A stretch of 64,000 nucleotides of DNA from Candidatus Thorarchaeota archaeon (GCA_046758445.1 JBHIAE010000002.1:74073-138072); one strand, 5' to 3'. Positions 33,290 to 63,971 are shown, counted from the stretch's first letter. The notes: generated from the sequence alone by a model not told the origin. Numbers and translations: made by a program.

Positions 33290-33407
33290 TGGTGCCGAGG
33301 GGGAGATTCGAACTCCCGAACTCCTACGAGAGTGGATATCTCATTGGAGTTAAGCGATGCTTATTTGATCTTGAGTCCACCGCCGTTGGCCGCTTGGCTA
33401 CCTCGGC
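33290..33407 (-). tRNA. tRNA-Leu(CAA) with 32-nt intron (33338-33369), CCA encoded
   Basis: GCCGAGG acceptor, GTGGA-CTCAAG|intron|A-TCCAC, long variable arm, GTTCGAAT. Confidence 0.93.
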
Positions 33408-45772: not shown

Positions 45773-45879
45773 TGGTGGACCGGGCGAGATTCGAACTCGC
45801 GACCTTTCGGACATTCGATCTACCGGGCAAACCAGCAGGCTTGCGAACCGAACGATCTACCAGGCTGATCTACCGGCCC
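45773..45879 (-). tRNA. tRNA-Ala(CGC) with 30-nt intron (45812-45841), CCA encoded
   Basis: GGGCCGG/CCGGTCC acceptor with G3:U70; TTCGG-TTCGCA|intron|T-CCGAA; GTTCGAAT. Confidence 0.92.
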
Positions 45880-48056: not shown

Positions 48057-49008
48057 AGTTCAAGTGTGTATGAAGGTCATGCGCTGGACCGATACTACTC
48101 CGGTCTACCTTGCCAATGTGCATGATTGAGATCAACTCTAGTTGATCCTGCTAGAGGACACTGCTATCGGCTTGGGGTTAAGACATGCAAGTGGAACGGG
48201 CTCGCATCCGAGTCCGTCGCGAACGGCTCAGTAGTGTCGCTAACCTACCCTGTGGAGGTGGACACCGCCGGGAAACTGGCGTTAATCCACCGTAGGAGCA
48301 TTGTTCTGGAAATGATGTTGCTCTGATATGGGGGCCCTAGGTATGTTGGGCTCTCCGCCGCAGGACGGGGCGGCACCGGATCATACTTGTAAGTGGGGTA
48401 ATTGCCCACTTAGGTTGTGACCCGAACGGGCGATGTAAGTCGTGGCCCGGAGAAGGGCACTGAGACAAGGGCCCTAGCCCCACGGGGTGCAGCAGTTACG
48501 AAACCTCACCAATGCGCGAAAGCGTGAGTGGGCCAAGCCGAGTGATGGGGGATAACTCCATCTGTGGCGAATCCGTATGATGGATTGCTAGAAAGGAGAG
48601 GGCAAGGCTGGTGCCAGCCGCCGCGGTAAAACCAGCTCTTCGAGTTGTGTCCATGATTATTGAGCTTAAAGCGTTCGTAGCCTGTTTGGTAGGTTCCTGC
48701 TTAAATCCGGCCGCCCAACGGTCGGCCTGGTAGGAATACCGCCTTACTTGGGAGCGGGAGACGGCGACGGTATTTCACAGGTAAGGGTGAAATCTAATGA
48801 TCTGTGGAGGACCACCAGTGGCGAAGGCGGTCGCCGAGAACGCGTCCGACGGTGAGGGACGAAACCCAGGGGAGCGAATCGGATTAGATACCCGAGTAGT
48901 CCTGGGCGTAAACGATGCCCGTTAAGTGTTGCATTGGCCACGAGCCACTGCGGTGCTGTAGCGAAAGCGATAAACGGGCCGCTTGGGAAGTACGGTCGCA
49001 AGACTGAA

Positions 49009-49038
49009 TTTGAGAGCCGCTCCGACTCTCGACAGGTC
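49009..49038 (+). other. 16S mini-intron 1 (30 nt, ~E. coli 908)
   Basis: Splits GACTGAA|ACTTAAAGG; GAGAG/CTCTC hairpin, relaxed BHB. Confidence 0.88.
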
Positions 49039-49077
<39 letters not shown>

Positions 49078-49482
49078 GCTTGCGGTTTAATTGGACTCAA
49101 CGCCGGAAAACTTACCCGCCCAGACAGCCGGATGAGAGCCAGACTGATGATCTTGCTCGACGAGCTGAGAGCTGGTGCATGGCCATCGTAAATTCGTGCC
49201 GTGAGGTATCAGCTTAAGTGCTGCAACGAATGAGATCCCTGCCACCTAGTTGCCAGCCGGGGGCTTCGGCCCTGTCGGGGCACACTAGGGGGACCGCCAG
49301 CGAAAAGCTGGAGGAAGGTGGGGGCCACGGTAGGTCCGTATGCCGCGATATGGGCGGGGCCACACGCGTGCTACAATGGCAAGGACAATGCGTTACGACA
49401 CCGAGAGGTGAAGTCAATCGCGAAACCTTGTCGTAGTTGGGATCGGGGGTTGGAACTCACCCCCGTGAACCTGGAATCCCTA

Positions 49483-49512
49483 TCGACTGCAGACTCCCTG
49501 TAGTCGGGGAAA
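49483..49512 (+). other. 16S mini-intron 2 (30 nt, ~E. coli 1346)
   Basis: Splits GGAATCCCTA|GTATCCG; BHB with UCCC/GGGA helix, CGACTGCAG/CTGTAGTCG stem. Confidence 0.9.
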
Positions 49513-49552
49513 GTATCCGCGTGTCACTATCGCGCGGAGAATACGTCCCTGC

Positions 49553-49582
49553 AGGGGACGTGAATCCCACGTACCCGGGGAA
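49553..49582 (+). other. 16S mini-intron 3 (30 nt, ~E. coli 1386)
   Basis: Splits GTCCCTGC|TTCTTGCACAC; CCCU/GGGG helix, ACGTG/CACGT stem. Confidence 0.88.
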
Positions 49583-49686
49583 TTCTTGCACACACCGCCC
49601 GTCGCTCCATGCGAGCGGCTTCTGGGTGAGGCGTTATCCTTTGGGTGATTACGAATCTGGGGGTCGCAAGTAGGGAGAAGTCGTAA

Positions 49687-49716
49687 CTGCGTCACACTTC
49701 GTGGCGTGGCGGAACA
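49687..49716 (+). other. 16S mini-intron 4 (30 nt, ~E. coli 1500)
   Basis: Splits AAGTCGTAA|CAAGG (junction ambiguous by +/-1); TGCGTCAC/GTGGCGTG stem. Confidence 0.88.
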
Positions 49717-49747
49717 CAAGGTATCCGTAGCGGAAGCTGCGGATGGA

Positions 49748-49778
49748 AGAAGTAGAGAGTCACTCTCGCTTCCATCAA
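49748..49778 (+). other. 16S mini-intron 5 (31 nt, just before the anti-Shine-Dalgarno)
   Basis: Splits CGGATGGA|TCACCTCCT; BHB GAUG/CAUC with GAA and AAU bulges, GAAG/CUUC and GAGAG/CUCUC stems. Confidence 0.9.
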
Positions 49779-49946
49779 TCACCTCCTATGTTTTCTACTT
49801 CATAGAGGTAGAAGCAGCTTGCTTGCAGTCCCTCGGGACTGCGAGAGAAGTACGGGCCTTCGACGACGGGGAATGCGGTGCAATCGTGACAGGTTGCCCA
49901 AGGCACGGGAACTTGCCCTAGCCGCTCACTGTTGAGCACCCTTTTC
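49769..49946 (+). repeat. 16S 3' end + processing trailer, copy A (resident)
   Basis: Homologous to 55094-55272; pairs with the 5' leader. Confidence 0.9.
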
Positions 49947-49989
49947 ATTTTGCATTAGATATTCCAAGATGAGATGACACTCCGTTCGA

Positions 49990-50727
49990 TCAACGCAGAG
50001 GCAATCCCTTCTTGAGCCTCTTCAGTTTGAACCTCAGGTCATCCAGCATCTCTTGGTAGTCGATGATATGCTCCTCAGGTCTCTCATCATTTTCAAAATA
50101 TGACTGAAGGAATTCCTCAGTCTCGGCGACAAAGCCCTCTATGATTTCATCTATGTCCCACTTCTTTCCCTCCGGAGGGATGAGGGCACCTGAGCTCACT
50201 CTCTCGCCAGTGATGGATGAAAAGACGCTGACCTGAATGCCACCATAGTCACTGGTGAGTACAACCTGTAGCTGCTCTGAGTCCAGACTGAGAAACGTTC
50301 CTAGGTTCACGGGTCTCAGGTTGAGAGCCCTGGCAATTCGCTTGCTCTCCCTGAATACGATGCCCTTTCTCTCCTTTGGGTCAGTCTCAAACGAGATGTT
50401 GAGCCTACATCTTCGACCCTCAAGGAAGACCTCTTTGGAGCTGATGAGACTGGACACATCGACATCAGAGAGGGGGGAGTTCTCTAGTGCTGACAGGTCT
50501 GAGGCGTCACTCTCTATCCTCCAACAATGACCATGAGCCGAGGCGGTCCCATCAACAAGTGGACAGACACTCTCATCATGTGAGACTGAAACATCTGTTT
50601 CGATTGGAGGTTGATCGAGCAACGCGCTGCAAGTCAGAGGAAAGGGTACATTCACCAGTACAAATGGGGTCTTTCGTTCGATATATGGTCTGAGTAGTTG
50701 AAGCTCCCCATACTCTATATGACTGTA
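49990..50727 (-). pseudogene. 5'-truncated paralog of the 1717-aa protein (C-terminal ~245 aa)
   Basis: IEYGELQLLRPYIERKTPFV..VPFPLT...HDESVCPLVDG...HGHCW aligns with IEYAELQLLRPYVERKTPFV..VPLPLT...HDENRCPLVDG...HGTCW. Confidence 0.88.
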
Positions 50728-50786
50728 ACTTCAGTCATGAAGTTACAAGTGAAACTTTATCAGAATATATGACAAACTTATCATAT
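50724..50786 (+). promoter_or_regulatory. Palindromes upstream of the mer cassette (putative operator sites)
   Basis: TGTAACTTCA-N4-TGAAGTTACA (50724-47), TTTAT box, ATATGA-N8-TCATAT (50767-86). Confidence 0.6.
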
Positions 50787-51111
50787 GATATCTTTGTCAT
50801 TAGATACCAATCCAATGGTCCTGTTCTTCAAGGGCTTAGCCAACGAAACAAGACTGTCACTCCTAAGGACACTCAGCAATAGACCAATGTCTGTTTCAGA
50901 GCTCTGTGCAGAGCTCGACTACGAGCAGAGCCGCGTTTCCCACAACTTGACATGTCTTGAGTTCTGTGGGTTCGTAAATAGTGAGAGGGATGGAAAGAAC
51001 AAGATCTATTCACTGAATGAAGAAACGATTGGACCACTCATGGGTATTGTTGACAATCATATCAGACAGCACGGTCAGAATCTCTTGCAGTGCAAGGTAC
51101 TGAAGAGATGA
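50785..51111 (+). CDS. ArsR/SmtB family regulator (probable Hg-responsive)
   Basis: FKGLANETRL, VSHNLTCLEFCG; adjacent to merA. Confidence 0.88.
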   Translation: MISLSLDTNPMVLFFKGLANETRLSLLRTLSNRPMSVSELCAELDYEQSRVSHNLTCLEFCGFVNSERDGKNKIYSLNEETIGPLMGIVDNHIRQHGQNLLQCKVLKR

Positions 51112-51166
51112 AAGAGGTCCGTTACAGAATGATGATGCTCAGTAACTATAGAAATGGATTGAAAAA

Positions 51167-52873
51167 TTGAGGTTGAACAAGATGGAAGATGAAGAGAGGA
51201 AACACGAGATTAGATTGAGAGTCAAAGGGATGACATGTGACAGCTGCGCTGTACATGTCCAACGAGCTCTTGAGAATGTTGATGGAGTGAACTTGGTCGA
51301 TTTACCAAGTTGGAAGTCCGAGTCAGTACGAGTCATTGCAAGATCAACAATTCCAGATAAGGAACTAACAGATGCTGTCAAAAATGCAGGATATAGTGCT
51401 GAAACAGACAGCAGGTCTGAAACTCACTTGGAACCAGTACTTCCAGTCACACCGAAGACTACAGGATATGACCTTGCTGTGATAGGAACAGGTGGAGCAG
51501 GAGTTGCTGCAGCCATAAAGGGCGCGGAGCTCGGCTACAGAGTCGCTCTAATTGAACGCGGAGAAATCGGAGGAACCTGCGTGAATGTCGGTTGCATTCC
51601 GTCAAAGACACTCATTCGAGCTGCAGAGTCATTTCACAATGCCAAGCACAACCCATTTCGAGGCGTGACAACCACATCAGGAGACCTCGTATGGAAGGAA
51701 GTGATTCTCCAAAAAGACTCACTGATAGAAACATTGCGACGAGAGAAGTACATCGACGTAATCGATGCCTACAAGGACAAGATCTCTGTTTTCAAGAGTC
51801 AAGCTCGACTTACTCATGATGGTGGTGTACAGCTAGAAAATGGGCAAACGATACAGCCTTCCAAGATTGTGATTGCGACAGGAGCAAGACCTCGAATTCT
51901 CTCAGTTGAAGGAGTGTCGGACACAAGTGTGCTTACTAGCACAAGTCTGATGGAAATCAACCAGCTGCCGAAATCGCTCATTGTTATTGGAGGACGGTCA
52001 GTCGCTTTGGAGCTAGGTCAAGCATTCTCGAGGTTTGGGACGAAAGTTACGATTCTTCAACGTAGTAACACGATAATCCCTGCACATGAACCGGAGATTG
52101 CTGAAGCACTTATGGGCTATCTTGAAGAAGAGGGGATAGAGATTATCACTAATGTCAGAGTATTATCGATCGCTGACTCCGGGGAGAAGATTGTTACAGC
52201 ACAAGTCAATGGCGACACGAGAGAGTTCAAGGCTGAGCATGTTCTAATGGCTGTAGGTCGAAAACCAAATACTGAGGACATGGGGCTCTCTGAGGCTAAC
52301 GTCGAACTTGATGAACATGGCTTCATTAAGGTGGACTCTCAAATGCGGACCAGTAATGAGCATGTGTTTGCCGCTGGTGATGTCGCAATCCTACCTAAGT
52401 TTGTCTACGTTGCTGCTGCATCTGGTGGACTAGCAGCTGAAAACGCACTTAGGAACAAAAGAAAGGAACTCGACCTTTCAATCATGCCCGGTATCATCTT
52501 CACCTCGCCTCAAGTTGCGGTTGTAGGTCTTACTGAAGACAAGGCAAAGGATGCTGGATACGAGGTAAAAGTGAGCATATTACCTTTAGAATATGTCCCA
52601 AGAGCATTGGCGGCTCACGACGTACGGGGTCTCATTAAGCTCGTTGCCGATGCAGAATCCAATTGTCTTCTTGGTGCGCATGTTCTTGCAGAAGACGCTG
52701 GCGAGATAATTCAAACAGCGGTCATGGCCATTCTAATGGGGCAGAAATATGGTTTCACAGTATCAGACTTCCAGAGTTTATTGTTCCCCTATCTCGTACA
52801 GGTTGAGGGATTGAAACTTGCGGCTCTGGCATTTTATAAGGATGTTTCTAAGCTATCTTGCTGTGCAAGCTAA
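51167..52873 (+). CDS. merA: Mercuric reductase
   Basis: N-terminal HMA GMTCDSC, GGTCVNVGCIPSK, FVYVAA, FPYL, C-terminal LSCCA. Confidence 0.95.
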   Translation: MRLNKMEDEERKHEIRLRVKGMTCDSCAVHVQRALENVDGVNLVDLPSWKSESVRVIARSTIPDKELTDAVKNAGYSAETDSRSETHLEPVLPVTPKTTGYDLAVIGTGGAGVAAAIKGAELGYRVALIERGEIGGTCVNVGCIPSKTLIRAAESFHNAKHNPFRGVTTTSGDLVWKEVILQKDSLIETLRREKYIDVIDAYKDKISVFKSQARLTHDGGVQLENGQTIQPSKIVIATGARPRILSVEGVSDTSVLTSTSLMEINQLPKSLIVIGGRSVALELGQAFSRFGTKVTILQRSNTIIPAHEPEIAEALMGYLEEEGIEIITNVRVLSIADSGEKIVTAQVNGDTREFKAEHVLMAVGRKPNTEDMGLSEANVELDEHGFIKVDSQMRTSNEHVFAAGDVAILPKFVYVAAASGGLAAENALRNKRKELDLSIMPGIIFTSPQVAVVGLTEDKAKDAGYEVKVSILPLEYVPRALAAHDVRGLIKLVADAESNCLLGAHVLAEDAGEIIQTAVMAILMGQKYGFTVSDFQSLLFPYLVQVEGLKLAALAFYKDVSKLSCCAS

Positions 52874-53020
52874 ACAAATGGCTCTTTCAGTAAAAGCGGG
52901 TCTTAGTACAAACATCTCAAAACAGCTTAGCGCTTCAGCGGGGCTTTCAGCTCACCACGATTGATGCCTTACTTATGCAGCTAAAGCAATGCTCTTTTCT
53001 CCTGATACAGTGAGAGTCAT

Positions 53021-53581
53021 TTGGGAATGCTGATGAGAGAAGTGAAATTCGAACCAGATTTGAGCAAACGCTTGCAGAAACAGTATGGGATGGAGAACCC
53101 CCCCGCCACCCTATCTGAGGTCATCAAGTTTGTCAAGGCACAGGTGCTTGCAACAGCTGGGGGTCGAGAATGGGTAGCATCGATTCGGAAAGGCAAGGTC
53201 ACAATCGGAGAAACGGACTTAGAGCGTGGGCTGTCCATCGTTTCGCCGGACGGGCGCGAGATAAAGGTCATGTGCGGCTACGATTCCCTGGGGACGGCTC
53301 TGCTACGCGGGGAAGGCCTAGTCAAGGCCACATGCTTCCACTGCGGTGAGAAGATGGAACTCGAGATTGAGGACAGCAAACTCGTTCATGCCTCCCACCC
53401 CTCAATCGTTTTTTGGATAGGAGACGGCCCTAAGGGCATACCATTCTGTGACCACTACAACTTTTTCCCGGATCAGAAACACCTAGATGGCTGGCTGGAT
53501 ACGAACCCTGAGGAGCTTGGTGTTGTACTATCTTTGGATGAAACGATTGAATTCCTGAATCTTTCGCACAAAGGATTGTGA
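53021..53581 (+). CDS. merB: Organomercurial lyase MerB-like protein
   Basis: MCGYDSL (cf. WCAxD), CFHCGE, C..YNFF; downstream of merA. Confidence 0.75.
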   Translation: MGMLMREVKFEPDLSKRLQKQYGMENPPATLSEVIKFVKAQVLATAGGREWVASIRKGKVTIGETDLERGLSIVSPDGREIKVMCGYDSLGTALLRGEGLVKATCFHCGEKMELEIEDSKLVHASHPSIVFWIGDGPKGIPFCDHYNFFPDQKHLDGWLDTNPEELGVVLSLDETIEFLNLSHKGL

Positions 53582-53605
53582 GTCAGATTTCGTATCTTCT
53601 TGTTT

Positions 53606-53705
53606 GATGTCTTCCCTCTGAGGTAAAGAGAATAAGAGGCTAACGGGGCTGGGTGTACAGGTAACCTGCCCCAGCACACAACGCTGAGCATTCTTTCATT
53701 TTGCA
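53606..53705 (+). repeat. Degenerate 16S trailer, copy C
   Basis: ACGGGG..GGTG..CTGCCCCAGC..CTGAGCATTCTTTCATTTTGCA resembles 49866-49954. Confidence 0.6.
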
Positions 53706-54203
53706 ATGCTCATACATTTCGGATATCCAAAATGTCTAGCCGGGATGAGATCGAAAAGTCCAGGTGGGCTGATTGTTACGAGCAAAGGCCATCCGATTAC
53801 AAGTGAAAGTCCGAGGACTTAAGATAGAGTATCTCAGGTCAGAAAGTACTCGACATTGATACCTATGGATGTTTTTTTGCTGTTTTCTGTGCCATCTTTC
53901 TCACTCCACCAAGACCCGCTCTTTCGTATATTGAAGATAGTAATTTACATAGCAATCATTGTATAATTATAGTATTCTATTGATTTTTTGATTATATTTA
54001 TAAGCGAGTCACAATCCGCCCAATCGTGCCTATCTATTATATAGACACGTAATGGTACACAGGTACAGAAGAAGACCGCTGCCGACATGATGATTGGTGC
54101 CTGCATTGGATTGCCTATGATGTGTAGAGCATGCGTAAACTCTTGGCTGAAGTGAATTCCCATCACTGTGGAGCATTCCTCTTAATATTGAGAAGGGATT
54201 AGA

Positions 54204-54509
54204 TTGGAGAAGGAAGGACAAATCCAGATATTGGAGAACGCATTGAAGCGTCTTAGAAGTGATGCACTGCTTATTCTATCAAAGATTGACCTCCCAGCAG
54301 ATTTGGAGGAGGTTGATGAGATCCTCAGAGAGGAGGAGTGGCTGGCAGGTCCTGATGAGCATGCAGTCATTGATTTGATCCGTAGCTTGGCCATCATAGC
54401 TACAGCCCTCAGACCAGACGTCTTTGGAGAAGCTATAAGACTGTTGATTCGTGTACTGAAGGACGATTTTGGAGAAGATGAATGGGAGGTTAATGACCAT
54501 GAGGATTAA
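54204..54509 (+). CDS. Hypothetical acidic protein
   Basis: ORF with a helical acidic profile; no motif recognised. Confidence 0.5.
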   Translation: MEKEGQIQILENALKRLRSDALLILSKIDLPADLEEVDEILREEEWLAGPDEHAVIDLIRSLAIIATALRPDVFGEAIRLLIRVLKDDFGEDEWEVNDHED

Positions 54510-54615
54510 TCTGTCTGCATTCATCTTCACTGGTCAGATCTCTAACGGAGATGCAACGGTTTGTTTAGCAGGTTTCTTTGAACGGTTTTATGCCAAAGGA
54601 GATGAGTTGTGAAAG

Positions 54616-55032
54616 TTGCAGTTTCTCCAAATACTTCTGGACCGGTTTGATAGTGATAGTGGAAATCCGCTGAAGAGGGCAATCGATGCACTTGATATGA
54701 TCGAATACTCAATCACCTATCCAGTGTGCAATACCATCACAAAGGAAGAGATAGAGGAAATCGAAGTACGTGTGAAGAAGCTGCTCACTGAGTTGAATAA
54801 TGATCCGGTTCTTGCCAGCAGAATTGAAAAGTGGTGGAATAAGCGTAGTCACTGTCAGGACACGGCCAAAAAGATGCATGTAAATGAACATGAGCACATT
54901 GACTTCCTTCGCTATCATGAGAGGATAATCAGCATCAGAAAGGCAAAGGTGGCTTTGATGAAGCATCTCAGAAACGAGGAATTGTCATTAGAGGAGCATG
55001 GCCTCTTAGGAAGCAAGTATCATCATTCATAA
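54616..55032 (+). CDS. Hypothetical protein
   Basis: ORF only. Confidence 0.5.
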   Translation: MQFLQILLDRFDSDSGNPLKRAIDALDMIEYSITYPVCNTITKEEIEEIEVRVKKLLTELNNDPVLASRIEKWWNKRSHCQDTAKKMHVNEHEHIDFLRYHERIISIRKAKVALMKHLRNEELSLEEHGLLGSKYHHS

Positions 55033-55093
55033 TCTGTCCGTGATTGCCTCCAGCCAATTAGACAACAGAGGCGCGTCATCGAGAATACATCAT

Positions 55094-55272
55094 CTTCCAT
55101 CAATCACCTCCTAAGTTTTCTACTTCTTAGAGGTAGAAGCAGCTTGTTTGTGGTCCCTTTGGGACTGCAAAAGAGGTACGGGTCCTAACGACGGGATAGC
55201 GGTGCAAAAGGAACTAGATTCCTCAGCGCCAGATTGGCACTTGCCCTGGTGTACGCTGTTGAGCACCCTTTC
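55094..55272 (+). repeat. 16S 3' end + trailer, copy B (starts inside intron 5)
   Basis: CTTCCATCAATCACCTCCTA.GTTTTCTACTTC.TAGAGGTAGAAGCAGCTTG...CTGTTGAGCACCCTTT. Confidence 0.92.
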
Positions 55273-55314: not shown

Positions 55315-58300
55315 CTACATCTTCTTCTCTATCCTTCTCTTCAGAGCCTCGACCCTCTTGAATCGTTCCTTATCACTATCCGCTTTCCATCTTCGAAGAC
55401 GTTCTTCAAGAATCTCAAGACTGTCTACCACAGCCGAGTGAGCAGCTTGAAGGTTTCTCTTTTTCAGATGAAACTTGGTCAGTTCTTCTAGAATGTCTGC
55501 AATCTCCTCCGAGAGCTCGGGGTCGTCCAAGGTCTTCTTCTTCAGTTCGAGTAATGCCTCAAGGTCACCCTCACTGTCATGTTCTCCCTTGGCAGTTGTC
55601 AGATGTTCAGTGTGAATAGCAACTAGAATGGACTCCATGTCATCAATCAACGAGTCGTAGTTCCGAACCCTCTCTTCCGGTTCTTCTCCTTCCCCAAAAT
55701 ACCCTGTGACAATGTTCTCAATATCATTAATTGCATTGCTGAGGGCAGTCTGCACATCCATCTCAATGCTCAAAGATGTGATCAGCCATGAGTAGACCTG
55801 CTCGCCAGTAGCATCAGAGATAGCTGATAAGACAACTCCGATACCATCCCTATCCCTTCTGACTGAACACTCGAGTTTCTCATGATCCATCCAAAGAAAG
55901 GTACCAGGGAGCAATCGTTTCAGACCAAGCTGTCTGGCAATACGGCTGCTCTCTCTATAGACCCCACCCTCACGTGATGCAAGGTCGTTCTCAAACTCTA
56001 GATCTAGTGCATATCGTGATCCTTCGAGAAACACTTCTCGTGCCGCGAGAAGACTTGATACATCTTGGTCATTGAGAGGCTTATCAAAGAGTGCGTTGAA
56101 GTCAGCAGGTCTTGTACTGCTTTCAGGTCTAAGCACCCAACATGTGCCGTGAGTTTCTGCTGAGCCATCCACGAGAGGGCATCTATTCTCATCATGTGCT
56201 ATTATGACAGACATCTTTCTAGGCACTTGTTCTGCCAACTCCTGACTGGTCAGGGGAAGAGGAACACTTGCGTGGACAAATGGTGTCTTTCTCTCTACAT
56301 AGGGTCTGAGTAGCTGCAGTTCAGCATATTCGATATCCCTGTAAGGATCCCATGTGAAGTAGACATTTGGACTCTTTGTGCTCTGCAGTGGTATACCATC
56401 AACCAACGGTCTACGTAGAATGCGAAGCAAGTCTGAGGTTTGCTCAGAATATCTGATGTCAAGTTTTTCCCCATTAGACTTGATGTTGATAGAATATGTC
56501 CCAGAGTCAATACCGAGTTCACACTGAACACTAATGATGTGTTGTTTCATTTGACCAATTTCCAGGAACTCGTTTTCAATCCTGTTTGGCAAGTCCGTTG
56601 GAATAGTCACTCCTGCAGGGACTTCTGGAATTCTGGATGAAGACATTGGTACTACCTGCAAACCTCTGATGTTCGTTATTGCACTCTTCTTTCTCGGAAT
56701 GATCACAAGCTCACCCAAAAGGTTCCAATTCCCCTCTGCAAAGAACCATACATACTCTGTCCCCTCCATCTTGCAGGTCAATAGACTATGGACTTCTTGA
56801 GGTTCCACAGTTGAAGCATGGTCCGCAATCTCACTGGCGTTCGACTCTGACCAACGAATTGATGAACCTGGATCCAATGGGTTCATACCAATCCAGAGAC
56901 CTGAACGAAGACGGTTCTGGTCATAGTGGTCCTCGAGGAATACCCAGTGTTCGTAGCCATCCCCACTTGGAGCCACCAGAAGCTGACCATACCTGACTGC
57001 TGACTGTACAGGCAGAGGTATTTGAGATAGGACTGAGGCTCTCTTGCAGAGGTTAGACCAAACAGCTCTGACATCGAACTTCGGTCTTGCAACTTCTGAC
57101 ACATCTCTCAGATAGAACCCGACCTGTCTTAGGTGCCAAGACTTCATCGTCATCCAAAGACTCTGAATCTGTTCAACCGGAAGGTCCGGATATTTCCTTG
57201 TCAGTGCCGCTAGCAGGAGAATCAAGTAGTTCCCATACAGGCTCGTGACATATGGTCTACTCTCAAGAAGCATCTCCAGCTGGTCCTGCTCATTCAATCG
57301 AAGACAAACGCCGAGTCTTCTCTCTCGAAACCATTGCATCGAGCCCCAGAGGTCAGAGGTCGCAGCATGGACCATAAACAGCTCTGAAACCCTGTTCAGG
57401 TCATCCAAAGCAGGCTGGACTCCCTTTGCAGGAATGATGCGCTCCAGCTGTTTGAGAAGGTCCAGCCAAGACACATCTGTCGCCCAAGACTCTTTTTGTC
57501 TGACAAGAAGTTTCAGAACCTGTCTGAGCCGTCGAAGCTCCACATTTCGGGCAGTCTGTTCCCTCAGGCTTCTGAACTCAAGGTGTGACTCATCAGGTGC
57601 TCTATAGGTCTGAGTGTTCAGAGTCCTCCGTTTCATTCGACGATATCGCCTGTAGTGCCGAGGGTGAGTGATTGTTTCATTGGGTATCAGTTGTTGATGA
57701 GAAACATAACCTCTCTTCCCCTTTGCTCTCGTTACTCTAGCACGATACCTCACCCTCGCCATGATACTCTTTGGCTTCATGGGTTTTCCATAGAGTGGTA
57801 TGACCTGGGAAGAGAGTGTGATACCATCTCTTTCCATCATCTTCTTACAGATGTTTGGATGAAGGACACAGAGCCAAGGAATGAGGTCGATTGAATCCTT
57901 GATCAGTTCTTCCCCAAGCTCGTTCATCCTGATGATGTCCTCAGCAGAGAGAGCATCACGCCCTCGATCTCCAGTGTGTCCCTTCTTCCTGCCTGTTCGC
58001 TTACTCTTCTTACTCCAGAAGCGTGCTGACCAGTTCTCAAGTATAGGCACTTCAATCAACTCTGTTTTGACTGACTCTCTTGTTTGTTTGACAATCACTC
58101 TCAGGTCATCGAGCATTGGTGTGGTCTGGACTGAGGTGTAAGGTCTGACTGGAAGATTCCAGACAATGTCCGTGACATGTAACCTGTGTTTAGATGAGTT
58201 CCAGAATGGGAGTAAGCAACGACTATGATACTTCTCTGACGTCCGCTCATCAGGTCTTGGCTGAAGGAACCAGACAGATGTGCTTCCTGTCTTGCTGATT

Positions 58301-60468
58301 TCCTGAATCATGTACCTCTCAAGCTCCTCCAACACTGGTCTGAGCCTTGGAGGGAGAGAGTCCTCAATCCACTGCCATCCACTGATAACGACAATACCCT
58401 TGGTAGATAGTGACTCAATCTCTGGGTGGTTTCCTCCTTGGAACAGGAACTGTTCAATGCTATGTGACATATCAATAATCTTGATGTTATCAAAGAAGGA
58501 TTGGACACCCTTTTCATGGCATGAGAGTCTGAGTCGCTTCTTGACTAGCTCATCATGACTGAATTCTCCAGAGAGATCCAGCCAAGTGATTGGTGTATTG
58601 TCACGCCATGAACTCAACTTCTGAAGATAGTGTAATCCATGCCAGTATCTAGCCAACCAAGCCGCTGTGAATCCTGAATTAGATGCTGATTTTGCACTTA
58701 GATACAGGATATGCCTTGTAGCGGTGTCCTGAACCTCTGAGAAGGGATCGAACTTGTCTTCGGTTTCCTGCGGGTTTTTCTCTGACTCCAATACTGTGAA
58801 CTGGTCCTCTGATAGTGAGTGGATGACCAAAGCCGCCCTCTGAGCAATAGGGTCCTTGGACCGGATGAGTAGCCTGTCACATCCTTTCAGCTTGCTCTTC
58901 AAAGAATGATCTTCTACCAAGATGTCCAGAAGCGAACGAACAACAGTCCGATTCAGTCCTATATCGAACTGAGTGTCTAGTAGGACAATCCCCTTGAGGA
59001 TATCTGGGAGCGACTCATCTCCTGTGAGTCTACGATACTCCTCCACAAGTCCGCCTGCATATAGACTCAATTGCTGAACGTCATCATCCTCAGGGACTTC
59101 AACAAGGGCATCATTCCACTCCTCATCTGTCATTCCTCTCTTCCTGACAATAAATCTTGGGACAGTCTTGTTTCTCTTCCCCTTCGATTTCTCGGTCCGA
59201 ATCTCCCAATCGAAGCTGGTCCGTGTCTTCATGTCAAAGACAGCAACCGGTTTCATTACAACCAGTTGCCCCGGTTTCTTTGGATTTGTAATCATAGTCC
59301 TGACAAACAGACCGAGGTCTATTCGACCAGGTCCCTCACCTGTTCCTAGTCGTGACTCGCCCACAAGAAGGTAGTCTTCGCCGGGCTGGAGAAAACGATC
59401 TCCTCTCAGGACTACTGACTCTGCAGTGTAAGTCTGTGGCAGTCCATCCGTGATGAGTCTGTGATACCTGATTCCCTCATATCGAGCTTTGTTCCTCACG
59501 ATTTTATACAGGTGTCTAGCATCCTGCGCCTTCAGCTTTGGATTCTTCTTTGGTGTGAGTTCCTTGAGAAACCGCGTCCATGTCTGTAGTTTTCGAGCTT
59601 CCTCCTTGGGCACTTTTCTGCTGGCTTGTTGAAGCTCTGTTATCTGATATTGAAAGAACTTCTCATCTAGAGGTTTATCATCACCTGTTCTAGTCCTTGA
59701 TGGGAAGACCTGCTTAGACGAACCTGTAACATACAGACCGTTCAGCTCGTCAACAAGTTCTCTAAGAATCTCATCAGCACACTTCTCCTTGACACTCGCT
59801 CTGGGACGCAGAAAATGACTGCTCCCAAGTTTGGTGTCTGCATAGATGTAGTCGACAAAAGGGGCAAGACGACGGATGAGTAGGAGTGCATATGAATCAA
59901 AGTCATTGGGGGGAACACCAAAGATTAAGGACTTGCGACACAACTCACGCCCATGAGACCGTATCATATCTGCAAGATCAAGCTCTGCCAAGTCCGCCCC
60001 ATGTGCAACGGGCACAGGACCAACTTCGTCGCTGGTGTATCCCCAGATGGTCTTTCTCTTCTGTTGTCCAATCTTTACTGGGGTTTCAAGTGGATACATC
60101 AGCAGGAAGTAATCTCTAAGTTTGGCTCCAAAGATGTTGATGAGCTTGTTTAACGGTCCAACAATTCCCTCTCTCTCGTTTCTCACTCGTTTGGTTTCGG
60201 TGTTTCCATAACTGGCTGTTGTTTCCCATATGTTCTCTAATTCTAGATCTCGAAGTCGTTTCTCTCTATCAGCAACAGGTGAGAAGTCAGGTTGTCCTTG
60301 TCTAAGACTTGTGTTCCACTTCTTGAGAGCAGCATCCAGTCGATTTTGCGCCTTTGAATACAGATGCTTTGTATCTTTGTTTGTACGTTCACGTAGCAAA
60401 CTCACTAGTGCTTTCAAACCAATGGTGTGTGCCTGAACCACTGTTTTTCCAGGATCTTCTGGAAACAC
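55315..60468 (-). CDS. 1717-aa unknown protein with a RecB/Cas4-like PD-(D/E)XK nuclease motif
   Basis: GRIDLG...VFDMKT...QQLSLY motif order; long intact ORF; paralog remnant nearby. Confidence 0.75.
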   Translation of the reverse strand: MFPEDPGKTVVQAHTIGLKALVSLLRERTNKDTKHLYSKAQNRLDAALKKWNTSLRQGQPDFSPVADREKRLRDLELENIWETTASYGNTETKRVRNEREGIVGPLNKLINIFGAKLRDYFLLMYPLETPVKIGQQKRKTIWGYTSDEVGPVPVAHGADLAELDLADMIRSHGRELCRKSLIFGVPPNDFDSYALLLIRRLAPFVDYIYADTKLGSSHFLRPRASVKEKCADEILRELVDELNGLYVTGSSKQVFPSRTRTGDDKPLDEKFFQYQITELQQASRKVPKEEARKLQTWTRFLKELTPKKNPKLKAQDARHLYKIVRNKARYEGIRYHRLITDGLPQTYTAESVVLRGDRFLQPGEDYLLVGESRLGTGEGPGRIDLGLFVRTMITNPKKPGQLVVMKPVAVFDMKTRTSFDWEIRTEKSKGKRNKTVPRFIVRKRGMTDEEWNDALVEVPEDDDVQQLSLYAGGLVEEYRRLTGDESLPDILKGIVLLDTQFDIGLNRTVVRSLLDILVEDHSLKSKLKGCDRLLIRSKDPIAQRAALVIHSLSEDQFTVLESEKNPQETEDKFDPFSEVQDTATRHILYLSAKSASNSGFTAAWLARYWHGLHYLQKLSSWRDNTPITWLDLSGEFSHDELVKKRLRLSCHEKGVQSFFDNIKIIDMSHSIEQFLFQGGNHPEIESLSTKGIVVISGWQWIEDSLPPRLRPVLEELERYMIQEISKTGSTSVWFLQPRPDERTSEKYHSRCLLPFWNSSKHRLHVTDIVWNLPVRPYTSVQTTPMLDDLRVIVKQTRESVKTELIEVPILENWSARFWSKKSKRTGRKKGHTGDRGRDALSAEDIIRMNELGEELIKDSIDLIPWLCVLHPNICKKMMERDGITLSSQVIPLYGKPMKPKSIMARVRYRARVTRAKGKRGYVSHQQLIPNETITHPRHYRRYRRMKRRTLNTQTYRAPDESHLEFRSLREQTARNVELRRLRQVLKLLVRQKESWATDVSWLDLLKQLERIIPAKGVQPALDDLNRVSELFMVHAATSDLWGSMQWFRERRLGVCLRLNEQDQLEMLLESRPYVTSLYGNYLILLLAALTRKYPDLPVEQIQSLWMTMKSWHLRQVGFYLRDVSEVARPKFDVRAVWSNLCKRASVLSQIPLPVQSAVRYGQLLVAPSGDGYEHWVFLEDHYDQNRLRSGLWIGMNPLDPGSSIRWSESNASEIADHASTVEPQEVHSLLTCKMEGTEYVWFFAEGNWNLLGELVIIPRKKSAITNIRGLQVVPMSSSRIPEVPAGVTIPTDLPNRIENEFLEIGQMKQHIISVQCELGIDSGTYSINIKSNGEKLDIRYSEQTSDLLRILRRPLVDGIPLQSTKSPNVYFTWDPYRDIEYAELQLLRPYVERKTPFVHASVPLPLTSQELAEQVPRKMSVIIAHDENRCPLVDGSAETHGTCWVLRPESSTRPADFNALFDKPLNDQDVSSLLAAREVFLEGSRYALDLEFENDLASREGGVYRESSRIARQLGLKRLLPGTFLWMDHEKLECSVRRDRDGIGVVLSAISDATGEQVYSWLITSLSIEMDVQTALSNAINDIENIVTGYFGEGEEPEERVRNYDSLIDDMESILVAIHTEHLTTAKGEHDSEGDLEALLELKKKTLDDPELSEEIADILEELTKFHLKKRNLQAAHSAVVDSLEILEERLRRWKADSDKERFKRVEALKRRIEKKM

Positions 60469-60718
60469 CAGACTAACTCCTGAATCAAACTAAGCGGGTT
60501 TTTCCCTTTTCTATTTTGCTTGAAACCTGAAACTTCCACATTTTGAACCTCAAATTAGAAATACGTTTAATAAATTTAAATATGATTCTGTATCAAATAA
60601 AGTGTGGAGAATATCAAGCAACCTCCGAGAAATGAGGTTGAGTGAAACTCCCCGACCGGAAACGGGTCGGAAATTTAAATATGTGAGGTTAAATCTCGTG
60701 GGTCGCTCCAGTGGCGTG

Positions 60719-62368
60719 ATGATAACGGTCAAGGTCCCTGTGAAATGGGATGTGATGACAGACAGACAGAAGACACGTCTGTCCAGAATCACAAGTCGGG
60801 ATACCAGAGTCATCAAGGCCTATCTTGGAGTGATTGAGAAACACGAGAGAAACCTCCTTGTTGGAAAGAACAAGAAACGACTTGATGCAGGGAAGATAGA
60901 CGAACTAACATTATGCACGGATACAAGAACAGTTCTTCACGATTTCAAAGACAGATTCCCGAACATCTCAACGAACGAACTGCAGGAGTGTAGAGAGACT
61001 GCCATCGGAATGTGGAGGGTGTATCTCGCACTTGGTAGAAACAAACCACTACAGGGTACAGGGTACAGGTCAAAGAAGTTACCCCGTCACATGTTCACCC
61101 GGATGTTCAAGTTCACCTATACTCCTGAGAAAGAGATCAAACACTGGCTGATTTTTCGTGACTCGCTAGATTCAGTGAGAGAAGGAAGAAAGACTCATGA
61201 CAGGTTGGCAACACCTCTGAGTCCTTCATCATATCATCTCAATCGTCTGAAGTCTGGTGAGGTCAAATCTATCCAGATTGTGAAAGACAGGAATCGGAAG
61301 TGGTGGGTTCTTTTCAAGGTGAAGGTGAACTCAGAGTCTTTAGACGACGAATCAAAACCGTTCGCAGTGATTGGTATTGACTTGGGAATAAAGAAGGCAG
61401 TCTGTTCAGTAGTGCTGACCAAGAAAGGACTTCGACATGTAAGATATTGGACTGATAGAGAGAAGGCAAAACACATCGAAGGCTATGATAGGATGGTGGC
61501 CAGTCTTCAACAGAAGAGGGACTCTTCTCTCCATTCTGACGATGTCACAAGACGACTCCGAACAATCAGTTCAAGACGTGAGAACATCAGTTTTGACTAT
61601 GACCGTGTCCTTGTGAAAAGACTCGCTGAGCATATTCTCGAACTATCGCAAGAGTTTGACCTCTATGTTTCGATTGGCAAGTTGAAGGGAATCCGTAATC
61701 GTGCTAGGAAAGGTGATGGAAAAGGTCGTCGGTTTCGCGGCATGATAAACAGATGGTCTTTTGCTCGAATCACTAACTCTCTTCAGCACAAGCTCAGTAT
61801 GAGTGGATTCGACCCGAAGAGAGTCCATGCAGTATCAGAGGCATGGACAAGCATCAAGTGTCACAAGTGTGGGTCAAAAGGATACAGACCAAAACAGAGC
61901 TACTTTCTCTGTCACACCTGTGGATATCGCGACAACGCAGACAAGAACGCTGCAATCAACATTGCTCTGCGTTTGATTAGGCTCATTCCCTCCTTGAGGG
62001 GTGAGAAAGGACTAGGGACTTGGTTCTCTAGATGGAAGACCTCCCCGAAGACCCAAAGGACTCGTTCTAAAGGGATGTCCTTAGCTCCTGAGAGTTCACT
62101 AGACTCGTCTGTAGGGAGCACCGTGGCTGACTGTCATGACCAGGCTTCTCTTGAGGAGTTTGCGAGCAGTACCGACCTAGCCATGGAAAAGACCATGGAA
62201 ACACCGCCTGCCATCACGGAATCTAGTGACCATGATAGTATAGTGCAGCGGACAGAAACTCAGTCTGTGAAGAGGAGTCATATTCCAGTGACTCACAGCA
62301 AAACTCGTGCACACCCAACAGGAGAGGTCCTGCTGGTCGCTGGTGACAGCAGTCATGAGGAGGGTTGA
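60719..62368 (+). CDS. tnpB: TnpB/Cas12f-like RNA-guided nuclease with rearranged RuvC-II and a C-terminal extension
   Basis: RuvC-I VIGIDLG, SIGKL, SEAWTS, CHKC/CHTC Zn ribbon, RuvC-III NADKNAAINI; start moved to the ATG after the TTTAAATA box. Confidence 0.9.
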   Translation: MITVKVPVKWDVMTDRQKTRLSRITSRDTRVIKAYLGVIEKHERNLLVGKNKKRLDAGKIDELTLCTDTRTVLHDFKDRFPNISTNELQECRETAIGMWRVYLALGRNKPLQGTGYRSKKLPRHMFTRMFKFTYTPEKEIKHWLIFRDSLDSVREGRKTHDRLATPLSPSSYHLNRLKSGEVKSIQIVKDRNRKWWVLFKVKVNSESLDDESKPFAVIGIDLGIKKAVCSVVLTKKGLRHVRYWTDREKAKHIEGYDRMVASLQQKRDSSLHSDDVTRRLRTISSRRENISFDYDRVLVKRLAEHILELSQEFDLYVSIGKLKGIRNRARKGDGKGRRFRGMINRWSFARITNSLQHKLSMSGFDPKRVHAVSEAWTSIKCHKCGSKGYRPKQSYFLCHTCGYRDNADKNAAINIALRLIRLIPSLRGEKGLGTWFSRWKTSPKTQRTRSKGMSLAPESSLDSSVGSTVADCHDQASLEEFASSTDLAMEKTMETPPAITESSDHDSIVQRTETQSVKRSHIPVTHSKTRAHPTGEVLLVAGDSSHEEG

Positions 62369-62415
62369 ACATGGAAGTTGATGGTGGAGAGATTTCACTC
62401 GCCTTTTCAGGTCGG
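62160..62415 (+). ncRNA. Putative omegaRNA/tracr-like scaffold overlapping the tnpB 3' end (5' boundary uncertain)
   Basis: CCGACCTA (62172-79) is complementary to the repeat TAGGTCGG; TnpB omegaRNAs typically overlap the gene 3' end. Confidence 0.55.
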
Positions 62416-62544
62416 ACTAGGGATTCCGGGTTTGACTTGATTTCCAATAGGTCGGACCTTGTTACGACTCTATTCGTGTTAGGTAAGCCTTTCGCAAGCA
62501 GGAGAATATCACCAATCCACACACGTCGGGGATCACCTCCTAAG
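62408..62544 (+). CRISPR. Non-canonical mini guide array: (AG)GTCGG repeats plus three 16S-matching spacers
   Basis: GTCGG at 62411, 62451 and 62525, followed by ACTAGGGATTCCGGGTT, ACCTTGTTACGACT and GGATCACCTCCTAAG. Confidence 0.8.
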
Positions 62545-63892: not shown

Positions 63893-63971
63893 GAGAGAAG
63901 TGTAGGCGGCGGTGATAGAGAGATTGGGGATCTGCCCTTCTGTCACTGTTGAGCACCCTTTCTCTTTTGCA
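63893..63971 (+). repeat. Partial 16S trailer, copy D
   Basis: GAGAGAAGT...GCGGTG...TGCCCT...TCACTGTTGAGCACCCTTT matches copy A. Confidence 0.8.

What the first reader, a model, noticed from the sequence alone, without database searches (positions are those of the whole stretch)
49466..49790. All three protospacers share an identical 5' CGGAT motif (predicted TAM), on both strands
Target 1 reads (antisense) gCGGAT|ACTAGGGATTCC. Target 2 reads (antisense) aCGGAT|ACCTTGTTACGAC. Target 3 reads (sense) gCGGAT|GGATCACCTCC. The same 5-mer abuts the first guide base three times, on the 5' side as expected for TnpB/Cas12 (cf. the ISDra2 TnpB TAM TTGAT). Mixed strandedness argues for dsDNA rather than rRNA targeting. 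In the array the guides follow GTCGG rather than CGGAT, so the array itself would not be cut.
Basis: partly seen in the sequence, partly recalled or inferred. Interest (0 to 1): 0.9.

Follow-up and report, generated by a model that had tools for sequence, protein, structure and literature searches.

The report
Flank motif of 16S-targeting TnpB guides
In this Asgard (Thorarchaeota) archaeon an RNA-guided nuclease gene (TnpB) behind the 16S rRNA gene carries three guides that match the 16S only as it reads without its tiny introns. The three target sites do share the flank CGGAT, though relatives narrow the likely recognition motif to about G-R-A-T.

Summary
**Observation: partly confirmed.** CGGAT sits at 49515-19 (-), 49723-27 (-) and 49740-44 (+), each touching the first guide-matching base.
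- None of the three protospacers is contiguous here. A 30-31 nt bulge-helix-bulge (BHB) intron splits each one 2, 7 and 3 nt from the motif.
- Two of the CGGATs are the two arms of one rRNA hairpin (helix 45), so they are not independent.

**Interpretation: partly supported.**
- The guides lie at 62416, 62456 and 62530, behind a TnpB gene (60698-62368). This TnpB has a Gly at the RuvC-II position and a conserved alternative Glu.
- In about 25 related Thorarchaeota arrays every 16S-matching guide starts right after GGTCGG.
- GGTCGG is the 3' strand of the helix that closes the guide-RNA scaffold. It pairs with CCGACC at 62172, and the two covary across the family.
- In the main clade the target flanks are CGGAT (three guide types) and AGAAT (a fourth), giving about GRAT. 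A divergent subclade has unrelated flanks.
- On shared contigs, 11 of 13 intact guide-target pairs are intron-interrupted, against a background of about 29%.

**Best reading (about 0.55):** a TAM-dependent RNA-guided nuclease aimed at intron-less 16S rDNA, with introns and the GTCGG flank giving self-immunity.

The scan has noted the same system in other Thorarchaeota genomes. No cleavage or RNA data exist.

The parts
48135..49788 (+). The single 16S rRNA gene, carrying five BHB mini-introns
   Evidence: Rfam RF01959, 1191 bits. Rfam's match stops at 49722 because of the introns. The 3' end CCTCCT was read. It is the only 16S in the genome.
49009..49038 (+). BHB intron A (30 nt, GAA^ACTT site). 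No guide against it was found in this genome.
   Evidence: (central helix ACTG/CAGG, 3 of 4 pairs).
49483..49512 (+). BHB intron 1 (30 nt). It splits the guide-1 protospacer (GGAATCCCTA 49473-82 plus GT 49513-14).
   Evidence: central helix TCCC/GGGA 4 of 4 pairs, 9-bp inner stem. Compensatory changes against G017 and G092.
49515..49519 (-). CGGAT flank of target 1
49553..49582 (+). BHB intron 5 (30 nt). It splits the site targeted by guide g5 (ACGTCCCTGC^TTCTTGC) in relatives. The flank here is GGAGAAT.
49686..49715 (+). BHB intron 2 (30 nt). It splits the guide-2 protospacer (GTCGTA 49680-85 plus ACAAGGT 49716-22).
   Evidence: central helix GTCG/CGGA 3 of 4 pairs; relatives have 4 of 4, with CGAT, CGGT, CGGC or CGAC.
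49723..49744 (.). Helix-45 hairpin atccgtagc-ggaa-gctgcggat. Its two arms supply the CGGAT of target 2 (- strand, 49723-27) and of target 3 (+ strand, 49740-44).
   Evidence: Sequence
49748..49778 (+). BHB intron 3 (31 nt). It splits the guide-3 protospacer (GGA 49745-47 plus TCACCTCCT 49779-87).
   Evidence: central helix GATG/CATC 4 of 4 pairs
60698..62368 (+). tnpB (556 aa from GTG 60698; the mechanical ORF starts at 60602)
   Evidence: NCBIfam guided_TnpB 1.3e-26; Pfam Cas12f1-like_TNB 3e-13. PDB Cas12f/TnpB hits. D228, G327, E381 and D415 invariant in 120 homologs.
62172..62179 (+). Anti-repeat CCGACCTA inside the tnpB 3' coding tail; 5' strand of the helix that closes the guide-RNA scaffold
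   Evidence: RNAfold pairs it with AGGUCGG at the 3' end (z -2.0). It covaries with the terminal hexamer across the family.
62410..62432 (+). Unit 1: GGTCGG plus guide 1 (12 nt exact, 16 of 17 to the antisense strand of spliced 16S)
62450..62469 (+). Unit 2: GGTCGG plus guide 2 (14 nt exact, antisense)
62525..62544 (+). Unit 3: GTCGG plus guide 3 (GGATCACCTCCT plus AAG, sense). This is the displaced ancestral 16S 3' end.
63893..63971 (+). Distal part of the ancestral 16S trailer, resembling the trailer of intron-less G011

Best explanation
**What the motif is.** The CGGAT flanks are real. Most likely they are instances of a degenerate target-adjacent motif, about 5'-(N)GRAT, read by a chromosomally fixed TnpB RNA-guided nuclease of Thorarchaeota.

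**How the guide RNA is built.** The guide-RNA scaffold (about 62172-62415) is closed by a helix between CCGACC, in the tnpB 3' coding tail, and GGTCGG. That 3' strand is repeated three times. Each copy is followed by a 12-17 nt guide.

**What the guides match.** They match conserved sites in the last 200 nt of the 16S rRNA gene, on either DNA strand, but only in its intron-less form.

**How the host gene is spared.** In this genome every such site is broken by a 30-nt bulge-helix-bulge intron. The intron is cut out of the rRNA, so the ribosome is unaffected while the DNA target is destroyed. The only uninterrupted copies of the guide sequences lie in the array itself, behind GTCGG instead of the motif.

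**Inferred action.** The enzyme cuts intron-less 16S rDNA, whether in sister chromosome copies or in incoming DNA. Repair from the intron-bearing locus then copies the introns and the adjacent cargo.

**Shown versus inferred.** Shown: the anatomy, its conservation, the BHB geometry and the guide-intron association. Inferred: nuclease activity, the TAM requirement, use of guides 2 and 3, and homing.
For: **1. Protein**
- It is a TnpB.
- The RuvC-I Asp and RuvC-III Asp are invariant.
- The canonical RuvC-II Glu position is an invariant Gly, with an invariant Glu 54 residues later, in all 120 homologs.
- This matches the 'rearranged catalytic site' clades that Altae-Tran et al. 2023 predict to be active (PMC10691335).
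- The orthologs are intact at 55-86% identity in at least eight loci.

**2. Guide boundary**
- In 25+ unique related arrays every 16S match of 10 nt or more starts exactly after GGTCGG.
- The hexamer covaries with an upstream anti-repeat: CCGACC:GGTCGG, ATGACC:GGTCAT, ATGACCC:GGGTTAT.
- RNAfold closes the scaffold with this helix.

**3. Flanks**
- Main-clade guide types have CGGAT, CGGAT, CGGAT and AGAAT.
- A 45%-identity paralog whose right end abuts a 23S 3' fragment has AAAAT in the intact 23S.
- CGGAT fills 11 and GRAT 26 of 3004 positions in the reference 16S.

**4. Self versus non-self**
- In this genome GGATCACCTCC is contiguous only behind GTCGG.
- All five copies of GCTGCGGATGGA (C2 plus four on C14) run into intron 3.
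- A contiguous GGAATCCCTAGT without the motif exists at C1:48793.

**5. The inserts are introns**
- 46 of 47 mini-inserts in 28 family 16S genes have the 4-bp central helix and 3-nt bulges.
- 39 of them have all four pairs, against 3% of shuffles. Cutting by the EndA rule restores the canonical 16S.

**6. Association**
- On shared contigs 11 of 13 intact guide-target pairs are intron-interrupted (window, L104, L127, G018, G093, G078, G057).
- The background is 33 of 112 site-genome combinations.
- Two different intron positions (1311 and 1317) break the same guide-1 site. One intron (1347) breaks the g5 flank.

**7. Linkage**
- tnpB lies 0.5-11 kb downstream of the 16S on the same contig in at least seven genomes of six genera.
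Against: - There is no biochemical or expression evidence.
- Only G-R-A-T, not CGGAT, is shared by the four main-clade guide types. Two of the three CGGATs are one hairpin.
- Subclade-2 guides have the flanks GTAAC and GGGAG.
- Exceptions to immunity:
  - G078 has guide 1 (12 nt, mismatch at position 13) and an uninterrupted, CGGAT-flanked target on the same contig.
  - The 19-nt guide 'x' of G057 has a contiguous target. The nearby intron alters only flank position -5.
  - G046 has guide 3 and an uninterrupted 16S 3' end, though on different contigs.
- Exact guide matches are short (10-17 nt, up to 27). They are nearer to those of nuclease-dead TnpB relatives than to the usual 16-20 nt.
- Introns A and 5 in this genome have no guide.
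- No transposase (Y1 TnpA or Cas1) was found in the genome.
- The kin are not independent, so the association statistics overstate.
Confidence: 0.55

Rival explanations
1. Fossil record, not a working TAM. The units are leftovers of successive right-end/flank junctions or segmental duplications of an element that lives at the 16S 3' end. CGGAT recurs because of the helix-45 palindrome and this lineage's rRNA sequence. Nothing is targeted today.
For: - Unit 3 is demonstrably a right-end/flank junction with the displaced 16S tail.
- Arrays gain, lose and reorder units, and many units are decayed.
- Relic arrays persist behind a destroyed tnpB in G057 and L108.
- Two of the CGGATs are one hairpin.
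Against: - Guides 1, 2 and 5 lie inside the gene body, where an element insertion would be lethal.
- They span intron sites rather than starting at them.
- tnpB is intact and conserved across six genera.
- The first 10-12 guide bases are kept while the inter-guide segments diverge.
- The 11 of 13 association with introns is unexplained by decay.
Confidence: 0.17
2. RNA-guided DNA binding without cutting, like the nuclease-dead TnpB relatives (TldR). The short guides let the protein sit on rDNA for regulation or another non-destructive role. The flank is still a recognition motif.
For: - The canonical RuvC-II Glu is absent.
- Guides match over only 10-17 nt.
- The self-matching pairs in G078, G057 and G046 are tolerated.
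Against: - In most genomes the cell's own sites are interrupted, so there is nothing in cis to bind.
- RuvC-I and RuvC-III Asp and an alternative Glu are invariant, including in multi-copy paralogs. That matches clades predicted active (PMC10691335).
- Selection for intron interruption implies that binding is costly.
Confidence: 0.13
3. The guides act on RNA. They pair with mature spliced 16S rRNA or with pre-rRNA, for example to help splicing or processing. CGGAT is then irrelevant.
For: Guides 1 and 2 are antisense to the spliced exon junctions.
Against: - Guides 3, 5, x and g2s have the same sense as the rRNA and cannot pair with it.
- The BHB geometry needs no trans factor.
- The protein is of the DNA-targeting TnpB/Cas12f type.
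Confidence: 0.03

Closest known systems
TnpB with right-end guide RNA (omegaRNA) of IS200/IS605 elements (ISDra2, Geobacillus IS605): TAM-dependent cleavage of the empty site to retain the element (Karvelis 2021, PMC8612924; Meers 2023; review PMC13565253)
   Same: - A TnpB protein, with the guide RNA overlapping the 3' end of the gene.
- A sharp scaffold/guide boundary.
- The last guide equals the DNA flanking the right end.
- A 5' flank motif is present at the target and absent at the guide locus.
- The guide matches the uninterrupted ('empty') allele.
   Different: - Several guides sit on one scaffold.
- Guides 1, 2 and 5 are not right-end flanks.
- The locus is fixed next to the 16S across genera, with no transposase found.
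- Self-protection is by spliceable introns inside the protospacers, 2-10 nt from the flank, rather than by the element sitting between TAM and target.
- RuvC-II is rearranged.
Asgard-linked TnpB groups (Cas1H-Asgard-1/-2) and RuvC-II-rearranged clades such as RIIr-5 (Altae-Tran et al. 2023, PMC10691335)
   Same: - An Asgard host.
- The GTTCACTCA motif downstream of tnpB (here TTCACTCGCC at about 62390).
- Glu replaced by Gly at RuvC-II, with a compensating Glu.
   Different: - No Cas1 domain was detectable in this genome or in the tested parts of the neighbouring 1717-aa protein.
- The paper left the guide unresolved. Here the guide boundary lies 3' of GGTCGG, and the targets are in the 16S rDNA.
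Trans or collaborative homing: a free-standing homing endonuclease that cuts the intron-less allele of a neighbouring gene whose intron has no endonuclease of its own (phage T4 mobE / nrdB intron, PMC2790892); LAGLIDADG endonucleases in archaeal rRNA BHB introns (Dalgaard 1993, cited in PMC13565253)
   Same: - The nuclease gene is linked to, but outside, ORF-less introns.
- The recognition sites span intron insertion sites in a conserved essential gene.
- The intron confers immunity.
   Different: - Recognition is by RNA guides, so several sites are served by one protein.
- The introns are 30-nt BHB introns.
- Homing itself is not shown.
CRISPR-Cas12 arrays, and the proposed origin of arrays by serial duplication of omegaRNA segments (PMC10691335)
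   Same: - Repeat-guide-repeat-guide layout downstream of a TnpB/Cas12-type gene.
- An anti-repeat that pairs with each repeat, as a tracrRNA does.
- Units are gained, lost and reshuffled between relatives.
   Different: - The conserved repeat core is only 6-8 nt, within about 27-nt degenerate units.
- Spacing is irregular (40 and 74 nt).
- There is no Cas1/Cas2.
- The guides target a host gene family, not invaders.

Membership tests
TnpB (OMEGA RNA-guided nuclease) | RuvC-like domain with catalytic D-E-D and a C4 zinc finger between RuvC-II and RuvC-III | tested here: inconclusive
   - The Asp in IGIDLG and the Asp in NADKN are invariant. CxxC...CxxC is invariant.
- The canonical Glu position is an invariant Gly, with an invariant Glu in VSEAWTS.
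- This fits published rearranged-site clades (PMC10691335).
- The spatial position of that Glu was not checked.
TnpB (OMEGA RNA-guided nuclease) | Sequence-profile membership | tested here: met
   - Pfam PF07282: 50 bits, cut-off 26.3.
- NCBIfam guided_TnpB: 93.8 bits, just under its cut-off of 100.
- Cas12f and TnpB structures are hit by sequence.
TnpB (OMEGA RNA-guided nuclease) | Structured guide RNA overlapping the 3' end of the gene, with a sharp scaffold/guide boundary | tested here: met
   - The scaffold is conserved in orthologs and paralogs.
- 16S matches always begin after GGTCGG.
- A covarying closing helix is present.
TnpB (OMEGA RNA-guided nuclease) | A 5' target-adjacent motif required for cleavage | not testable with these tools
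   Flank comparison only: CGGAT three times, AGAAT, and AAAAT in a paralog; GTAAC and GGGAG in a subclade.
IS200/IS605 or IS607 transposon | An associated TnpA (Y1 or serine recombinase), multiple mobile copies, and the element sitting between TAM and guide target | tested here: not met
   - No Y1_Tnp or Cas1 hit in the genome, which is 92.7% complete.
- The 16S-linked copy is syntenic across six genera.
- The introns, not the element, interrupt the targets.
CRISPR array | Regular direct repeats of about 23-40 nt with similar-sized spacers, and an adaptation module | tested here: not met
   - The repeat core is 6-8 nt inside degenerate units of about 27 nt.
- Unit spacing is 40 and 74 nt.
- No Cas1 was found.
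Archaeal bulge-helix-bulge introns | A 4-bp central helix flanked by two 3-nt bulges, with cuts 2 nt 3' of the helix on each strand that restore the mature sequence | tested here: met
   - 46 of 47 inserts have 3-4 pairs in the central helix, 39 with all four. Shuffled controls reach four pairs in 3%.
- All five window introns comply.
- Splicing itself was not observed.
TldR (nuclease-dead TnpB repressors) | Loss of RuvC catalytic residues or truncation, with a guide aimed at a neighbouring promoter | tested here: not met
   - Two Asp and an alternative Glu are conserved.
- The targets lie in the 16S coding body and are mostly interrupted in cis.

The most novel reading that the evidence does not exclude
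RNA-guided nucleases aimed at immutable rDNA sequences may be what selects for archaeal BHB mini-introns, and drives their spread.
- A spliceable intron is the only way to destroy such a DNA target without changing the rRNA.
- The same locus would be a living intermediate between a single-guide TnpB and a CRISPR array: one scaffold, one anti-repeat, and several short repeat-guide units chosen next to a GRAT-type motif.
- It may also drive the pile-up of gene cassettes behind the 16S gene.
Probability: 0.4. Interest if true: 0.95.

Novelty: new variant of a known kind. Interest (0 to 1): 0.8.

Why it matters
- **A testable rule.** If the flank is a true TAM, it is the rule that tells this nuclease's targets (intron-less 16S genes of related Thorarchaeota) from its own guide locus. 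The system can then be tested directly with a TAM library and two DNA substrates, one with and one without the intron.
- **An old question about introns.** The wider system gives a concrete, checkable answer to why tiny protein-free introns sit in the most conserved parts of archaeal rRNA genes, and how they could spread.
- **An evolutionary intermediate.** It offers a natural multi-guide TnpB that bears on how CRISPR arrays arose.
- **Who is at risk.** CGGAT/GRAT next to these sites is specific to this lineage. That points to competition or drive within Thorarchaeota rather than a broad anti-microbial weapon.
- **Literature.** I found no paper describing this in the searchable library.

Tried and rejected
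- **Guides for introns A and 5.** None was found elsewhere in this genome: only chance 11-mers turned up.
- **TAM from mobile paralogs.** Upstream regions of 49 family members align only from a promoter-like TTAATAAATTTATATA onward. No sharp left end could be set, so no TAM could be read.
- **The 1717-aa neighbour as Cas1-like** (suggested by earlier scan notes):
  - No Pfam, NCBIfam or PDB sequence hit, and no named Atlas cluster.
  - The AF2 model of residues 1118-1717 (pLDDT 75) gave no significant Foldseek match in the PDB.
  - The AF2 model of residues 1-620 (pLDDT 52) gave no significant Foldseek match in the PDB either.
  - Residues 621-1117 were not folded, so the claim is neither confirmed nor excluded.
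- **Similarity between intron sequences and array repeats.** None was seen by eye.
- **Chance 23S matches.** A 10-nt match of the scaffold (CTGGTGACAG) to 23S position 2954 recurs in all scaffolds and was set aside as scaffold sequence. GTCGGACCTTGT inside the coding tails of distant paralogs was treated as coincidental 7-9 nt 'g2' hits and left out of the counts.

Full report
**1. What is at the coordinates**

The stretch 49466-49790 is the 3' minor domain of the genome's only 16S rRNA gene. Rfam RF01959 matches 48135-49722, and the true 3' end, CCTCCT, is at about 49788. Homolog names place the organism in Candidatus Thorarchaeota, an Asgard group. The genome is 3.25 Mb with 49% GC.

The three CGGAT 5-mers are at 49515-19 (-), 49723-27 (-) and 49740-44 (+). 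The three 'guides' occur once each, 12.7 kb downstream, at 62416, 62456 and 62530. Each follows GTCGG and lies just 3' of a 556-aa TnpB gene.

**2. Corrections to the observation**

- **The protospacers are split.** Alignment with 13 and then 28 related 16S genes shows five inserts of 30-31 nt in this gene. Three of them split the quoted targets after protospacer positions 2, 7 and 3. The quoted 'protospacers' therefore exist only in the intron-less reading.
- **Two CGGATs are one hairpin.** The CGGATs of targets 2 and 3 are the two arms of the perfect hairpin atccgtagc-ggaa-gctgcggat (helix 45), so one implies the other.
- **No general enrichment.** CGGAT is not enriched in the window (111 seen, 109.6 expected). 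It fills 11 of 3004 strand-positions of an intron-less reference 16S. Two independent abutments are still unlikely by chance, at about 1e-5.
- **The motif is lineage-typical.** This family reads ATCCG/CGGAT at all three places. More distant archaea read AACCG or AATCG and AGCCG/CGGCT.

**3. The inserts are bulge-helix-bulge introns**

I applied the splicing-endonuclease rule: a 4-bp central helix between the last exon bases and intron bases -6 to -3, 3-nt bulges, and cuts 2 nt 3' of the helix on each strand.
- 46 of 47 mini-inserts (29-33 nt) in 28 family 16S genes have 3-4 pairs in the central helix.
- 39 have all four pairs, against 3% of shuffled controls.
- The predicted cuts restore the canonical 16S exactly.
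- The inner hairpins keep pairing through compensatory changes, for example cgac/gtcg against catc/gatg at site 1.

By this rule the window introns are 49009-38, 49483-512, 49553-82, 49686-715 and 49748-78.

**4. The protein**

- Profile and structure-sequence searches identify a TnpB/Cas12f-type protein.
- In 120 homologs the RuvC-I Asp, the RuvC-III Asp and the zinc-finger cysteines are invariant.
- The canonical RuvC-II Glu position is an invariant Gly. An invariant Glu lies 54 residues later.
- Altae-Tran et al. 2023 describe such Gly-substituted clades with a compensating Glu and predict them to be active and mobile. They also report a GTTCACTCA motif downstream of Asgard tnpB genes, which is present here (PMC10691335).
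- The genome holds about nine paralogs at 43-57% identity.
- It has no detectable Y1 transposase or Cas1.

**5. GTCGG is the end of the guide-RNA scaffold**

- An unbiased scan of the 3' regions of all family members found rRNA matches of 12 nt or more only in the 16S-linked ortholog clade. They always start right after GGTCGG.
- The hexamer covaries with an anti-repeat in the tnpB 3' coding tail: CCGACC:GGTCGG in orthologs, ATGACC:GGTCAT and ATGACCC:GGGTTAT in paralogs.
- RNAfold closes the 250-nt scaffold with exactly this helix.
- The three pre-guide segments in the window are degenerate copies of the last 27 or so scaffold bases.

**6.

About 25 unique related arrays carry these guide types (counts are for guides of 10 nt or more):

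| Guide | Strand | Position on the G011 reference | Arrays | 5' flank |
|---|---|---|---|---|
| g1 | antisense | 1320 | 9 | CGGAT |
| g2 | antisense | 1468 | 8 | CGGAT |
| g3 | sense | 1491 | 8 | CGGAT |
| g5 (10-27 nt) | sense | 1349 | 8 | AGAAT |
| x (55%-identity subclade) | sense | 1464 | 3 | GTAAC |
| g2s (55%-identity subclade) | sense | 1453 | 3 | GGGAG |

- A 45%-identity paralog whose right end abuts a displaced 23S 3' fragment gives AAAAT in the intact 23S.
- The conserved part in the main clade is therefore G-R-A-T, or only R-A-T, not CGGAT.
- An earlier scan note on another genome proposed GRATA (e1-5526479). Three of my four main-clade guide types also begin with A.

**7. Guide 3 is a true right-end junction**

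- After GTCGG the window reads GGATCACCTCCTAAG. After a 1.3-kb insert it reads the distal trailer (63893-63971). Both resemble the 16S tail of the intron-less relative G011, whose empty site reads CGGAT|GGATCACCTCC.
- In G075 the same unit runs on into more than 100 nt of trailer.
- The working 16S tail upstream (GGA-intron 3-TCACCTCCT plus trailer) is a second copy. A third copy starts at 55094.
- At least four more copies lie on contig C14.

Within this genome every motif-flanked copy carries intron 3. The only contiguous copy sits behind GTCGG. This is the pattern expected if the flank licenses attack.

**8. Guides and introns go together**

- Same-contig pairs with an intact cognate tnpB and a guide of 10 nt or more:

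| Locus | Pairs interrupted by an intron |
|---|---|
| window | 3 of 3 |
| L104 | 2 of 2 |
| L127 | 2 of 2 |
| G018 | 1 of 1 |
| G093 | 1 of 1 |
| G078 | 1 of 2 |
| G057 | 1 of 2 |
| total | 11 of 13 |

  The background is 33 of 112 site-genome combinations. Related genomes are not independent, so this is indicative only.
- Two intron positions (1311 and 1317) break the same g1 site. One intron (1347) splits the g5 flank.
- All guide targets lie in the last 200 nt of the gene, next to the tnpB cassette.
- Of six genomes with no tnpB within 20 kb downstream of the 16S, three have no introns at all.
- Exceptions: g1 in G078, x in G057 and, on separate contigs, g3 in G046. Relic units in G057 and L108 lie behind a tnpB destroyed by insertion of a second TnpB.

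**9. Reading**

The most economical account is a TAM-dependent RNA-guided nuclease aimed at intron-less 16S rDNA. Spliceable introns are the only escape open to sequences that cannot mutate, and the scaffold end protects the array.

I do not know whether the introns came first and merely permitted the guides, or were selected by them. Nuclease activity, the TAM, use of the second and third units, and homing are all inferences.

The closest functional analogues are TnpB empty-site cleavage and trans homing by free-standing endonucleases (PMC2790892; PMC13565253). I found no description of this arrangement in the searchable literature.

Other agents of this scan have reported the same system in other Thorarchaeota genomes.

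Noticed in passing
window 49769-55271, with genes at 50785-53581: A mercury-resistance cargo (ArsR-type regulator, MerA with an HMA domain, MerB) lies between two copies of the 16S 3' end plus trailer (49769-49944 and 55094-55271, 78% identical). It looks like a cassette inserted at the 16S tail.
   Followed up: partly
own genome contig C14, about 37.3-48.1 kb and 65.1 kb (minus strand): At least four more copies of the module 'helix-45 3' arm + intron 3 + 16S 3' end + about 170-nt trailer' (79-83% identical) separate further DNA blocks. This is a cassette array anchored on 16S tails. Contig C2 ends in such a repeat.
   Followed up: partly
window 55315-60468 (-): A 1717-aa ORF divergent from tnpB is conserved (37-83% identity) on the same contigs as the TnpB orthologs in relatives. 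It has no family, PDB or fold match. An invariant GRIDL...FDIKT pattern near residues 380-415 resembles a PD-(D/E)xK nuclease motif. The Cas1-likeness proposed by earlier notes could not be confirmed.
   Followed up: partly
own genome C24:28508-30343 and about 200 nt downstream; loci L040, L042, L043, L048, L137, L138: A paralogous TnpB clade (about 50% identity) carries one or two units, G(G)TCGG or GATCGG followed by TGCATGCA(T/G)CC. It sits just upstream of an mvhD-like gene whose 5' end contains TGCATGCA. This may be another fixed, host-gene-directed guide.
   Followed up: no
locus L146:11630-11980; own genome C67:12328-12389: A 45%-identity TnpB paralog is followed directly by a displaced 23S rRNA 3' fragment (from about position 2908), with no 23S body within 10 kb upstream. 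This genome also holds an orphan 62-nt copy of the 23S 3' end. The family may use 23S tails as well.
   Followed up: partly
own genome C53:12049-15379 (L001): The single 23S gene has a 31-nt insert and a 216-nt insert near reference positions 2701 and 2731. G018 has 429-nt and 30-nt inserts nearby, and G077 has a 30-nt insert at 2948.
   Followed up: no
window about 60602-60660: The tnpB 5' leader, downstream of a TTTAAATA-type promoter, contains GAGTGAAAC and CCGACC. These are complementary to the 3' scaffold's GTTTCACTC and GGTCGG, in an order that could only pair as a pseudoknot or in trans. The feature is conserved across the family.
   Followed up: no
loci L093 (G057), L108, L032 (G067): A second TnpB subclade, with its own guides x and g2s, is inserted into an older 16S-linked tnpB just before that gene's anti-repeat. 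The old guide array is left as a relic.
   Followed up: partly
window 45776-45879 (-) and 33293-33407 (-): Two tRNA genes of 104 and 115 nt are long enough to carry introns. Earlier notes report BHB introns in protein-coding genes of this genome as well.
   Followed up: no
16S genes of G024, G091, G089 (L015, L076, L077), reference position 871-873: Introns of 740-900 nt occupy the same site as the window's 30-nt intron A. In G024 the insert looks like coding sequence, but it was not searched against any family. The mini-intron may be a shrunken relative.
   Followed up: no
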